From a virus, in the IMG/VR virus record IMGVR_UViG_3300028909_000018, positions 1-64,000 of that record: DNA of 64,000 nt. One strand, written 5' to 3'. The position numbers were made by a program, and so were the translations under genes. Each line of letters opens with the position of its first letter. Within the stretch, counting starts at the first letter, position 1. Below the pieces are notes generated by a model. The model saw only the letters and a program-made list of their open reading frames with translations, was not told where the DNA came from and made no database searches. Below are positions 42,587 through 48,724 of the stretch, piece after piece.

Positions 42587-42661
42587 TGGAGGCGCTACTG
42601 AGGATCAAACTCAGGTCTCAAGATTTGCAGTCAAGCGCATGGGTCACTCTGCTACAGCGCC
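42587..42661 (-). tRNA. tRNA-Cys(GCA)
   Basis: GGCGCTG/TAGCGCC acceptor, loop CTGCAAA, encoded TCCA. Confidence 0.85.
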
Positions 42662-42671
42662 GAAAAAGTCT

Positions 42672-42902
42672 TGGTGGGGTAAACTGGTGTGCTTACCTCT
42701 TTCTTGACATCCAAGTATGCCGACCCCTCTTACCAATGCCATTCATTACGCCTAGTAGAGCAGTAATGAACTGGGGTAGATATCCATGATCCACAAAGCC
42801 TCTACTAAGGTGACGGATCAGAAGGAACATCTAGCTACTATCTTGCATGATGGCTGAGAGGGCTCACCTGTCATTTAATCCTCTTGCACAGAGGAACCAC
42901 CC
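42672..42902 (-). ncRNA. Unknown structured RNA (~231 nt) ending in CCA
   Basis: Nested helices with G-U pairs on the minus strand, 8-nt complementary loops, late box 42906-42912 directly upstream. Confidence 0.7.
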
Positions 42903-42912
42903 AAGTATTTAT

Positions 42913-44299: not shown

Positions 44300-44375
44300 T
44301 GGTAGTCCGTGTCAGGTTCGAACTGACAACCTTGGAATTAAAAGTTCCTTGCTCCACCCATTGAGCTAACGGACT
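44300..44375 (-). tRNA. tRNA-Lys(TTT)
   Basis: AGTCCGT/ACGGACT acceptor, loop CTTTTAA, TTCGAA T-loop, ACCA end. Confidence 0.9.
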
Positions 44376-44379
44376 GGAA

Positions 44380-44456
44380 TGGTAGACTTGGAGTGATTCG
44401 GACACTCGACCTTTCGCTTAAGAGGCGTCTGCTCTAACCAACTGAGCTACAAGTCC
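44380..44456 (-). tRNA. tRNA-Lys(CTT), atypical
   Basis: Loop CTCTTAA; only 3 anticodon-stem pairs; T-loop TCCGAAT; ACCA end. Confidence 0.8.
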
Positions 44457-44462
44457 AAAAAG

Positions 44463-44675
44463 TTATTTATCTTTCCTGTTTCTGATGTAATCCTCGACGT
44501 TCAAAAGATTCCTGAGCATTTCTCTACGCGCCATCGCATATTCAGGTCCAAGAACCAGAAGATCATTAGTCAAACGATTAAACAGAACACGAAGTTTTTC
44601 CAGTTCTTCATCAGTGACATGATCACCGTAGTAAAACTTTTTATAAATTCCGGCCAACTCTGTATCAAATCTCAT
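44463..44675 (-). CDS. Hypothetical protein
   Basis: GAGG RBS, 70 aa. Confidence 0.6.
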   Translation of the reverse strand: MRFDTELAGIYKKFYYGDHVTDEELEKLRVLFNRLTNDLLVLGPEYAMARREMLRNLLNVEDYIRNRKDK

Positions 44676-44697
44676 ATTATATCCTCTCTAAAAAGTA

Positions 44698-44994
44698 TGT
44701 GGGAGACTCGCGGTATCACGCGAATAATATACCCCTCTGTGCCTGTCGGTCAGTAGATAAATGCATGTCATCACACACATTCAGGGCTCCTATCTCATCT
44801 CCAAATAAGTTCTGGAGCTATGCCTAGCTTCAACGAGACCGATTTTACTCGTCCCTCCACTCCTAACATTAATTTAAGTCCCGCCCTCCAGATAGCGGTT
44901 CCGAGGTAGTTCCCGATCTCGTCCTAGAACACGTCTACCTGTGTTCAGGACCAGCCAGATAGCGACTCTGGCAATTCCGTAATCTTACTCTCCC
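44698..44994 (-). ncRNA. Unknown large structured RNA (~297 nt) with pseudoknot potential
   Basis: GGGAGA/TCTCCC terminal helix, at least 6 hairpins, loop-to-downstream complementarities, no credible ORF. Confidence 0.65.
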
Positions 44995-44996
44995 TC

Positions 44997-45428
44997 TTAG
45001 AGATTGTCAATGGCCTCTTTTAGAGATTCTAGAGTATCGACACCTTTTTGAGAATAACCAACCTTCCATTCTTTTCCGTCCCAAACGTAGGCATATTCCG
45101 TCCAACAGTCGGGCATAGGCCATATATATTCCAGAGTCTCGGCTTCAAAAGCCTTGACATCTTCCCAAGGTTCATTACCACGATCCCTAAAGTAGGCGAC
45201 ACAATAGCCGTCAACCTTATTCTCCCAGCTATGCCCCTTGGGTTTGGTGCATTTCGGACCAAGAATCGACAAATTCCCCAGCCCGATCAGCTTCTCGGCC
45301 TTCTTGGTGGAATTATAATTCTCGAATAATATCTTACCATTATGTCTCACATAACCATCCCAATGGCAGTAAATACGACGCCAGACGCCATCCTTACACA
45401 AAACAATAATATCACTTCTGGTTCCCAT
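44997..45428 (-). CDS. Conserved phage hypothetical protein
   Basis: MGTRS.I...IYCHWDGY....G..L and EYAY.WDG..W motifs. Confidence 0.75.
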   Translation of the reverse strand: MGTRSDIIVLCKDGVWRRIYCHWDGYVRHNGKILFENYNSTKKAEKLIGLGNLSILGPKCTKPKGHSWENKVDGYCVAYFRDRGNEPWEDVKAFEAETLEYIWPMPDCWTEYAYVWDGKEWKVGYSQKGVDTLESLKEAIDNL

Positions 45429-45472
45429 GATACATACTCCTATGATTTGAACAATATCACTTTAAATCATTT

Positions 45473-45748
45473 TTAAACGTTGTCAACCACTTTTTTCTCT
45501 TTCATCGGAGAAACAGAAGGAACCTTCGCCTTCTCTTGAAACTTTCCGCCCCACACCGCGTCGTAGACACCCAAGTTATAGGCCGACGCCAGAATTTGCA
45601 TCACTTCTCTATAAGAAACAAATTCGTCTGGCGTATTAAACACCGACTGACATTGTTTATGCATCCATGCCAGCGTCGCCGGATCAGTGATACGCAGTTC
45701 TACCGGAAGCGGAAAGAAAGGTATGTAATCAAGAAAATGTTGTGACAT
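45473..45748 (-). CDS. Hypothetical protein
   Basis: MSQHFLDY... with GAGG RBS. Confidence 0.5.
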   Translation of the reverse strand: MSQHFLDYIPFFPLPVELRITDPATLAWMHKQCQSVFNTPDEFVSYREVMQILASAYNLGVYDAVWGGKFQEKAKVPSVSPMKEKKVVDNV

Positions 45749-46215
45749 GGCACCCTCACTTGAACCCCATAAAAAAATCATTGATGGAAAGCGTATCAAT
45801 CCCACCAAAATATTGGATGATTCCTGCGAAAATTATCATAATAGTAATGATAAGCATGAGGGCGAGGCAATGTTCAACGAATCGCCGGATTATCTGTTCT
45901 CGACGCCACACCTTGGCGAAATCTTCCATGTGGCTCATTTCAATATTCCTCCAGAATTTCGCCAGTATCTTTGTTCTTGATGAAAGCATACTGATAAGAA
46001 TGTTGACGATACTCCCTCACCGTCTCAATAGCCTCCGAAAGGGTGAAACAATCCTCCAGATGCTCGGGCTCGGCACCATATCCGTAGACATCATTCCAGC
46101 CGCCCCAAATTTCATAATGTGGATAATTCATGATAAAAAACCTCCGCGTTGATATGATCAATATAAATGGTTTTGATTCTATGTCAAGCGATAAATATCA
46201 AAAAAGAAGGATTTT

Positions 46216-48482: not shown

Positions 48483-48724
48483 GATGTTTCTCCGTTGTTC
48501 CGATGATATGAATATAAATCATTCATATCGGGATGTCAACGGATATTTTTAAAAAATTAGAGAAATTTCTGATTAAACGCCTTTGGATCAATCCAAGCAC
48601 AAAAAATTAGGAATGCAACCATAGGGTTACGTGTCATCCAGATCACGAGGGCAGCACCGGCGATGATGGCCAGATCGATGAGGAATGTTTTCACATGTTT
48701 CATGACAAAAATCCTTTAAAAGAA

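What the first reader, a model, noticed from the sequence alone, without database searches (positions are those of the whole stretch)
44698..44994. ~297-nt multi-pseudoknot RNA with tRNA-like ends
Seen (minus strand): GGGAGA/TCTCCC-ACA closing helix preceded by a T-arm-sized TCGCG/CGCGA hairpin; hairpins GCCAGA/TCTGGC, GTCCT-GAACAC/GTGTTC-AGGAC, CCGC/GCGG, ACGAG/CTCGT and TGAATGTGTGT/ACATGCATTTA (G-U pairs fix the strand). Loop pairings are AGGTAG/CTACCT (44935-44940/44904-44909), TCTGGAG/CTCCAGA and TCGGTC/GACCGA; CGCTATCTGG occurs twice. The layout recalls tmRNA but lacks G3-U70, the TTC loop and a tag frame. Inference: an undescribed ncRNA or ribozyme.
Basis: partly seen in the sequence, partly recalled or inferred. 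Interest (0 to 1): 0.75.

Follow-up and report, generated by a model that had tools for sequence, protein, structure and literature searches.

The report
Conserved structured RNA beside phage tRNAs
An uncultured T4-like peat phage carries a strongly conserved, protein-free stretch of about 270 bases with its own early promoter just upstream of two lysine tRNA genes; it is probably a new structured RNA of unknown job, but its supposed tRNA-like ends and pseudoknots do not hold up.

Summary
The window is a 107.5-kb IMG/VR contig of a distant T4-like myovirus from peat.

**What holds up**
- The only relative found (L003/L022) keeps the core, 44704-44972, at about 93% identity.
- The upstream ORF is only 68% identical and the downstream ORF is replaced by an unrelated one.
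- Third-position divergence in 12 genes is 14-44%; the core has 5% substitutions. It is under purifying selection.
- One 11-bp hairpin shows compensatory changes.

**What does not hold up**
- The "closing helix" loses 2 of 6 pairs in the relative. Its 5' arm lies in the spacer of a conserved TTGACA-17-TAAGAT promoter.
- The loop-to-distant-segment pairings are no more frequent than in shuffled sequence.
- Rfam, ARAGORN and the tmRNA model give nothing. A covariance model finds no paralog or homolog in 42 viral records.

**Verdict**
This is a real, lineage-restricted, promoter-driven structured RNA module at the head of a small-ORF and tRNA-Lys unit. I think it most likely acts on its own, as T4 RNA C/D or ROOL/GOLLD are thought to. 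A cis-acting leader is the main rival. Function is unknown and only two sequence variants exist.

The parts
45005..45010 (-). -35 hexamer TTGACA of a sigma-70-type (phage early) promoter
   Evidence: 10 of 12 match, 17-nt spacer. Identical in L003. The pattern TTGACA-N16-18-TAnnnT occurs 9 times in the window against 2.4 expected, 8 of them on the gene strand.
   Evidence: The hexamer is identical in L003 while the spacer has 4 substitutions. In L003 the upstream ORF runs 4 codons further and stops at the TAA of this hexamer.
44704..44976 (-). Conserved structured RNA module. The 5' end near 44975 is inferred from the promoter; the conserved core is 44704-44972.
   Evidence: 14 substitutions and 4 single-base indels in about 270 nt against L003. 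The neutral proxy is 14-44%. z = -2.09.
44954..44972 (-). Hairpin H1: GCCAGA / 7-nt loop / TCTGGC, containing the first copy of CGCTATCTGG
   Evidence: Predicted in all folds. Invariant in L003.
44921..44951 (-). Hairpin H2: an inner 9-bp helix CCTGAACAC/GTGTTC(T)AGG with an 8-nt loop
   Evidence: In L003 the bulged T is lost, one outer pair becomes G-U and one breaks. A rival long-range pairing of this segment is predicted.
44881..44898 (-). Hairpin H3: CCGC / 10-nt loop / GCGG, containing the second copy of CGCTATCTGG
   Evidence: Invariant.
44832..44853 (-). Hairpin H4: GACGAG / 10-nt loop / CTCGTT
   Evidence: The sequence shows the pairing; partly predicted. Invariant.
44786..44818 (-). 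Two-part hairpin: GCTCC...GGAGC enclosing CTTATT/GATGAG
   Evidence: The L003 change T to C falls in its 4-nt loop. A TAT insertion variant in two peat runs falls just 5' of it, in unpaired sequence.
44758..44783 (-). Hairpin H6: 11 bp with a GATG loop. This is the only helix with comparative support.
   Evidence: In L003, G-C becomes U-A, U.G becomes C-G, G.U becomes A-U, and one base is inserted on each strand, which keeps 11 pairs. The same haplotype appears in run X19. Three G.U pairs would be A.C mismatches on the other strand.
44706..44725 (-).
   Evidence: Invariant. The loop is 6 nt and has no TTC.
44692..44703 (-).
   Evidence: Six substitutions and a 2-nt deletion in L003. No intrinsic terminator was found here.
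44673..44691 (-). Conserved ribosome-binding region (AGAGAGGA) and ATG of the next ORF
   Evidence: 18 of 19 bases identical in L003 although the ORF behind it is unrelated.
44463..44675 (-). 70-aa ORF of unknown function. L003 has an unrelated 63-aa Cys-rich ORF in its place.
   Evidence: No PHROG or significant Pfam match.
44300..44456 (-). tRNA-Lys(CTT) and tRNA-Lys(TTT), next on the same strand
   Evidence: 98% identical in L003.

Best explanation
The element is a discrete RNA module of about 270 nt (about 44976 down to 44704, minus strand). It is found only in one lineage of an uncultured, distantly T4-like peat myovirus.

Transcription starts at the element's own sigma-70-type early promoter (TTGACA-17-TAAGAT, 45010-44982). 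No terminator follows, so the transcript should run on into a small ORF and the two tRNA-Lys genes. The RNA folds into a chain of at least seven hairpins.

The module is kept almost unchanged while the gene behind it was exchanged. I therefore infer that it works on its own as a stable phage RNA. It would be released from the early tRNA-operon precursor by cleavage in the variable, A/U-rich linker. It would then act in trans during early infection, as a binder or decoy for a host or phage factor. This is the kind of RNA seen next to tRNA islands in other phages.

Shown: it is non-coding, conserved above the neutral rate, has a conserved promoter-like element, has one covarying hairpin, and matches no known family. 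Inferred: the start site, release from the precursor, trans action and the target.
For: - No ORF of 40 aa or more on the gene strand. The four 1-nt indels against L003 are incompatible with coding.
- It is a conservation island: 92-98% identity per 50 nt. The upstream ORF is at 52-82%, the downstream ORF has no homology, and the tRNAs are at 98%.
- The core has 5% substitutions. Four-fold-like third positions in 12 neighbouring ORFs diverge by 14-44%.
- Both promoter hexamers are conserved while the spacer varies. The promoter pattern is enriched on the gene strand.
- Conservation begins 3-4 nt after the inferred start and ends before a variable linker.
- Hairpin H6 has compensatory changes. 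The other substitutions and indels fall mostly in loops, linkers or terminal pairs.
- It folds better than shuffles in both phages.
- The downstream ORF is swapped while the module and RBS are retained.
- ROOL and GOLLD show that phages place large structured RNAs of unknown function near tRNA islands (PMC12286853).
Against: - Only two sequence variants exist, so seven of the eight helices counted show no compensatory change (six are invariant), and one search has no statistical power.
- No RNA data: no holder on record as RNA was listed, so a discrete transcript is not shown.
- No terminator or recognisable processing signal marks a 3' end.
- The RBS and ATG directly after the linker are conserved together with the module. 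That fits a cis-acting leader equally well.
- A recent recombination patch could inflate the apparent conservation, because identity between the two genomes is mosaic at 68-95%.
- Folding z-scores are modest and similar on both strands.
Confidence: 0.45

Rival explanations
1. It is a cis-acting 5' leader. The hairpin chain is the untranslated head of the early mRNA. It would stabilise that mRNA against 5'-end-dependent decay, or control translation or processing of whatever follows (the small ORF and the tRNA-Lys precursors). No independent RNA species would exist.
For: - It lies exactly between a promoter and an RBS, with no terminator between them.
- The RBS and ATG are conserved together with the module.
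- Other promoters of this pattern in the window lie about 30 nt from an ORF start, so this one has an unusually long leader.
Against: - The regulated ORF is exchanged for an unrelated one in L003, which is unexpected for a gene-specific riboswitch.
- No anti-SD segment or terminator/antiterminator alternative was found in the conserved core.
- No riboswitch, T-box or leader family matches even at E up to 10.
Confidence: 0.3
2. One reading: a 297-nt tmRNA-like or tRNA-like RNA. Its 5' and 3' ends would pair in an acceptor-like helix next to a T-arm, with several pseudoknots in between.
For: - GGGAGA/TCTCCC and the adjacent 5-bp hairpin exist in this genome.
- The size and the tRNA-cluster context resemble those of tmRNA.
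Against: - The closing helix loses 2 of 6 pairs in L003.
- Its 5' arm lies in a promoter spacer, which is coding sequence in L003.
- There is no ARAGORN tmRNA. Rfam tmRNA models do not match here at E up to 10.
- Position 3 is G-C, not G.U. The loop is UGATAC, not a T-loop. The 3' end reads ACA, and the aligned L003 bases read AAA.
- No tag frame is present.
- The pseudoknot pairings are not above chance.
Confidence: 0.03
3. There is no RNA-level function. The island would be a DNA-level element (a promoter or regulatory region, or a recombination or replication site), or simply a patch recently exchanged between the two phages.
For: - Identity between the two genomes is mosaic, and breakpoints flank the island.
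- Both strands fold about equally well relative to shuffles.
- The 10-bp direct repeat could be a protein-binding site on DNA.
Against: - The substitution rate (5%, and 1.6% in the central 129 nt) is below the lowest synonymous-like divergence of any neighbouring gene, which is 14%.
- The changes in H6 preserve pairing, and the window's version needs G.U pairs that exist only in minus-strand RNA.
- 270 bp is long for an operator region.
Confidence: 0.12
4. The conserved centre encodes a micropeptide: the 24-aa ORF at 44795-44869 on the minus strand is open in both phages.
For: The ORF is intact in both phages.
Against: - Both differences inside it are non-synonymous and none is synonymous.
- The nearest SD-like GGAGG lies 15 nt before its ATG.
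- Conservation extends about 100 nt on either side of it.
Confidence: 0.04

Closest known systems
ROOL (RF03087) and GOLLD (RF01998) large ornate RNAs
   Same: Both are phage-encoded, sit beside tRNA islands, are rich in hairpins with predicted pseudoknots, have no known protein partner and have unknown function (PMC12286853).
   Different: There is no Infernal match at gathering score or at E up to 10. This element is about 270 nt, against about 580 and about 800 nt. The host is a distant T4-like peat phage. Its pseudoknots and any multimer contacts are untested. Only two sequences are known.
Phage T4 stable RNAs C and D (species 1 and 2) in the T4 tRNA cluster (from my own knowledge of T4 biology)
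   Same: Both are non-tRNA, non-coding RNAs encoded among phage tRNA genes and made from the same transcripts. Their function is still unknown.
   Different: The T4 RNAs are about 120-140 nt and are matured through tRNA-like ends. Here the tRNA-like ends fail the comparative test. No sequence similarity to any GenBank phage was found.
tmRNA (RF00023 and related models)
   Same: Similar length and several hairpins. In this one genome there is also a 5'/3' complementarity followed by a short unpaired tail.
   Different: All defining features that were tested are absent. See the membership test.
Long structured bacterial 5' leaders (riboswitches, T-box, glmS-type)
   Same: It sits between a promoter and an RBS, and its size is comparable to T-box or cobalamin leaders.
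   Different: No family matches. No expression platform was recognised. The gene behind it is not conserved.

Membership tests
tmRNA | Recognised by the tmRNA covariance models or by ARAGORN | tested here: not met
   ARAGORN finds 4 tRNAs and no tmRNA. Rfam gives no hit at E up to 10 on the region. RF00023 run on the whole record hits only tRNAs at 97.8-100.6 kb.
tmRNA | Conserved tRNA-Ala-like acceptor stem with G3.U70 and a 3' (A)CCA end | tested here: not met
   Pair 3 is G-C. The helix loses 2 of 6 pairs in L003. The tail reads ACA, and the aligned L003 bases read AAA. The 5' arm lies in a promoter spacer.
tmRNA | T-arm with a 7-nt T-loop (TTCRANY) | tested here: not met
   The hairpin at 44706-44725 has a 6-nt loop, TGATAC.
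tmRNA | Resume codon and short tag reading frame | tested here: not met
   No suitable frame exists. The small ORFs present are not tag-like, and the frame of the 30-aa ORF hits a stop right after its ATG in L003.
tmRNA | SmpB partner | tested here: inconclusive
   There is no PF01668 match in the 107.5-kb record. The record is only 62% complete, and a host SmpB could serve.
ROOL / GOLLD | Match to the family covariance model | tested here: not met
   No hit at gathering score or at E up to 10.
ROOL / GOLLD | Encoded in a phage or prophage next to a tRNA island | tested here: met
   It is in a T4-like contig. tRNA-Lys x2 begin 240 nt downstream and more tRNAs follow.
ROOL / GOLLD | Covariation-supported pseudoknots and intermolecular contacts | tested here: inconclusive
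   All three proposed loop pairings are invariant in L003 and are not above chance. One change from GATC to CATG keeps a 4-nt palindrome, but it has another explanation.
Riboswitch / cis-regulatory leader | Lies between the promoter and the RBS of the regulated gene | tested here: met
Riboswitch / cis-regulatory leader | An expression platform (terminator/antiterminator or SD-sequestering helix) and a stable association with one gene family | tested here: not met
   No terminator was found. No conserved anti-SD was found. The downstream ORF is replaced in L003.
C/D box sRNA (weak Rfam look-alike) | Conserved C, D', C' and D boxes scoring above the gathering score | tested here: not met
   sR1 scores 18.1 bits against a cut-off of 45. 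The D' box CTGA becomes CCGA in L003, where the score falls to 14.8 bits.
Generic functional structured ncRNA | Non-coding, conserved above the neutral rate, with covariation and a discrete transcript | tested here: inconclusive
   It is non-coding and conserved: met. Covariation is seen in one helix only, with n = 2. The transcript is not testable, because no holder on record as RNA was listed.

The most novel reading that the evidence does not exclude
The module could be the founding member of a new, smaller class of 'ornate' phage RNAs tied to tRNA islands. In that reading the loop pairings (AGGTAG/CTACCT, TCTGGAG/CTCCAGA, TCGGT/ACCGA) are real pseudoknots. The GATC to CATG switch in L003 would preserve a self-complementary contact between copies, as in ROOL/GOLLD multimers. 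Alternatively, it is a ribozyme that cuts itself out of the early tRNA precursor.
Probability: 0.15. Interest if true: 0.75.

Novelty: new variant of a known kind. Interest (0 to 1): 0.4.

Why it matters
Phages repeatedly place large structured RNAs of unknown function next to their tRNA genes (T4 RNA C/D, ROOL, GOLLD). What these RNAs do is an open question.

This element would add a compact example with its own promoter, from a soil and peat T4-like lineage. It has clear module boundaries, set by variable linkers on both sides. That makes it easy to clone, probe and image.

Its value is limited for now. Only two near-identical variants exist, the host is unknown and no expression data are available.

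The check also removes a misleading reading: tmRNA-like ends that are really a promoter spacer.

Tried and rejected
**Searches for homologs, all negative**
- blastn 'distant' against 50,697 GenBank phages found only tRNA matches.
- Exact 16-24-mers from four parts of the RNA in IMG/VR found only L022, plus chance hits: L021 in GC-rich coding DNA and L231-L237.
- My single metagenome scan used a pattern that was too loose: the 10-mer repeat twice with a variable gap. Metagenomes are therefore effectively unsearched.
- A 19-mer in GTDB genomes gave 4 chance matches, which is about the number expected.
- nhmmer over about 230 fetched loci found nothing.
- BLAST and covariance model R1 over 31 and 42 whole related viral records found nothing.
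- Loci found through the upstream 143-aa protein (80 loci at 35-54% identity) gave no RNA match; in the four closest I saw no comparable gap after the gene.

**Expression**
- No RNA holder is listed. Three peat metatranscriptome runs listed from a shared study (RNA contigs; I did not lay them) hold next to none of the sampled words.
- Laid DNA contigs gave only the L003-type haplotype and one loop insertion.

**Other readings considered and rejected**
- C/D-box look-alike: sub-threshold, and one box is not conserved.
- CsrA or SD-sponge idea: five GGAG words in the core. I estimated about 2 expected from base composition by hand. This was not formally tested, so it was dropped as unsupported.
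- An internal promoter-like site, CTGACC-16-TATATT at 44753-44726, is weak (9 of 12), and such sites are not enriched in this region.
- H1 as an anticodon-arm mimic: position 37 is a pyrimidine, and the supposed D-arm is not conserved.
- No paralog in the phage's own record. No similarity to the other putative RNA at 42672-42912.

Full report
**Context**

The window is the first 64 kb of a 107.5-kb linear IMG/VR virus record, estimated 62% complete. PHROG matches to baseplate hub and wedge proteins, and 37% identity to baseplate wedge proteins of Stenotrophomonas phage DLP_6, Caulobacter phage Cr30 and Sinorhizobium phage phiM12, make it a distant T4-like myovirus.

Near-identical DNA is present in 20 runs from 19 studies, mostly peat metagenomes.

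The finding lies in a tRNA region on the minus strand, arranged in this order:
- a 143-aa ORF (44997-45428, phrog_1987/23089, function unknown);
- a 320-nt gap;
- a 70-aa ORF (44463-44675);
- tRNA-Lys(CTT) and tRNA-Lys(TTT);
- further small ORFs and tRNAs.

**Checking the observation**

The 10-mer CGCTATCTGG occurs exactly twice.

The gap has no ORF of 40 aa or more on the gene strand. The 297-nt stretch folds at -100 kcal/mol, against -86.4 +/- 5 for shuffles, so z = -2.73.

Long-range complementarity by itself is not remarkable. Perfect pairs of 6 bp or more number 9, against 6.95 +/- 2.5 in dinucleotide shuffles, and 78 of 300 shuffles have as many. Two hairpin loops have a 6-nt distant complement, against 0.95 expected, and 486 of 2000 shuffles have as many. 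The 'multi-pseudoknot' description is a possibility, not a finding.

**Known families**

Rfam 15 at gathering thresholds finds only tRNAs in the window. With lax filters and E up to 10, on 1.1 kb and on the RNA alone in both phages, nothing relevant appears.

The only recurring sub-threshold hits are C/D-box snoRNA models (sR1 at 18.1 bits against a cut-off of 45). They are caused by the words GAGATGA, CTGA, GTGATGA and CTGA. The D' word is lost in the relative, so I reject this reading.

ARAGORN finds no tmRNA. The tmRNA model run over the whole record hits only tRNAs elsewhere. No SmpB gene is present.

**The one relative**

A search with the nearby gp5-like protein found IMGVR_UViG_3300029922_000439 (L003/L022, 14.7 kb, 90% protein identity). 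It carries the element at 92% identity.

Identity along the alignment, in 50-nt bins (ORF swap):

| Segment | Identity to L003/L022 |
|---|---|
| Element | 41-49 of 50 per bin |
| Upstream ORF | 26-41 of 50 per bin |
| Downstream ORF | no homology; replaced by an unrelated 63-aa Cys-rich ORF |
| tRNAs | 49 of 50 per bin |

As a neutral yardstick I used four-fold-like third codon positions. These differ by 14-44% in 12 neighbouring ORFs. The core, 44704-44972, has 14 substitutions and 4 single-base indels in about 270 nt (5%). The central 129 nt has about 1.6%. The element is therefore under purifying selection, and the 1-nt indels exclude coding.

**The ends**

The comparative data speak against the tRNA-like ends:
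- The closing helix GGGAGA/TCTCCC becomes AGGCGA/TCTTCG in L003, with 2 of 6 pairs broken.
- A sigma-70-type promoter lies on the minus strand: TTGACA (45010-45005), a 17-nt spacer, then TAAGAT (44987-44982).
- The pattern TTGACA-N16-18-TAnnnT occurs 9 times in the window against 2.4 expected, 8 of them on the gene strand.
- In L003 both hexamers are identical while the spacer has four substitutions. The upstream ORF there even reads four codons further and stops at the TAA of the -10 hexamer.

Conservation begins at TTGCCAGAG, 3-4 nt after the inferred start near 44975. At the 3' side it ends at GAGTCT (44704). After that comes a conserved RBS and ATG. No intrinsic terminator lies between the module and the ORF.

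**Structure**

Folds of the trimmed RNA from both phages and the two-sequence consensus agree on a chain of local hairpins. Their coordinates are in the parts list.

Counting on a model of eight helices and 56 pairs gives 98% of cells paired, against 32-44% when the partners are slid by one to three columns. With two sequences there is almost no power.

The exception is the 11-bp hairpin at 44758-44783. In L003, G-C becomes U-A, U.G becomes C-G, G.U becomes A-U, and one base is inserted on each strand, so 11 pairs remain. The same haplotype is seen in a contig of peat run X19. The window's version needs three G.U pairs, which fits minus-strand RNA.

Other differences fall in loops, linkers or terminal pairs. 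A TAT insertion found in two peat runs lies in unpaired sequence.

The 5' third has two competing folds: two local hairpins, or one long irregular hairpin (against 53, 55). I cannot decide between them.

One change, GATC to CATG at 44915-44918, keeps a 4-nt palindrome and could mark a contact between RNA copies. However, the C-to-G change and the neighbouring G-to-A change also extend a small GAGG/CCTC hairpin in L003. This stays unexplained.

**Distribution**

I found no further homolog or paralog. The full list of searches is under Tried and rejected. The statement 'restricted to this lineage' therefore holds only for IMG/VR, GenBank phages and GTDB genomes at the sensitivity used.

**Interpretation**

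The evidence supports a real, RNA-level, promoter-driven module of about 270 nt at the head of an early transcription unit that continues into a small ORF and two tRNA-Lys genes.

The ORF behind it is exchangeable while the module is kept. I therefore favour an autonomous, probably trans-acting stable RNA released from the precursor (confidence 0.45). This parallels the T4 tRNA-cluster RNAs C and D (my own knowledge) and ROOL/GOLLD, which are 'often near tRNA islands' in phages and have unknown function (PMC12286853).

The main rival is a cis-acting leader (0.3). It is favoured by the missing terminator and by the RBS being conserved together with the module. A DNA-level element or a recombination patch (0.12), a micropeptide (0.04) and the tmRNA-like reading (0.03) are less likely.

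**Verdict**

This is a new, unclassified phage RNA candidate of moderate interest. It has two known variants and no functional evidence.

Noticed in passing
window 44463-44675 (-) versus L003:3831-4022 (-): The ORF after the RNA is exchanged between the two phages: a 70-aa ORF here, an unrelated 63-aa Cys-rich (CxxC) ORF there. The RBS and ATG in front are almost identical, so the recombination joint sits at the start codon.
   Followed up: partly
window 44997-45428 (-): The 143-aa ORF upstream belongs to a large phage family of unknown function (phrog_1987/23089; 312 homologs). It has invariant YCHWDG and YxRDR motifs and no Pfam match. In L145 a homolog also sits inside an 11-tRNA cluster. 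In L003 the ORF is 4 codons longer and ends in the -10 hexamer.
   Followed up: partly
window, whole (for example 45459-45486, 46160-46187, 48511-48539, all -): Perfect TTGACA-N16-18-TAnnnT promoter-like sites occur 9 times against 2.4 expected, 8 of them on the gene strand. This suggests the phage uses host sigma-70 for early genes. T4-type late boxes (TATAAATA) occur 5 times, three of them in the tRNA region (43051, 43586, 43913).
   Followed up: partly
window 42590-42661 (-): Rfam calls a tRNA here (46.6 bits) that ARAGORN does not report. The segment is only 50-60% identical in L022.
   Followed up: no
window 42672-42912 (-): The other putative 231-nt RNA noted by first readers is poorly conserved in L022, at about 60% identity with gaps. 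The present element is far better conserved.
   Followed up: partly
window 44795-44869 (-): A 24-aa ORF inside the most conserved part of the RNA is open in both phages. Both differences are non-synonymous (G to R, W to R).
   Followed up: partly
window 44915-44918 (-): GATC in the window is CATG in L003. Two substitutions turn one 4-nt palindrome into another, in a segment predicted to be unpaired. This could be a self-complementary contact or a coincidence.
   Followed up: partly
window 44818/44819: A TAT insertion variant is present in contigs of two peat runs (X20, X19). On the RNA it duplicates AUA in an unpaired segment.
   Followed up: no
G000:C1:97853-100593 (outside the window): The tmRNA-model search picked up several tRNA-like matches here. 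They point to a second tRNA cluster in the same phage record.
   Followed up: no
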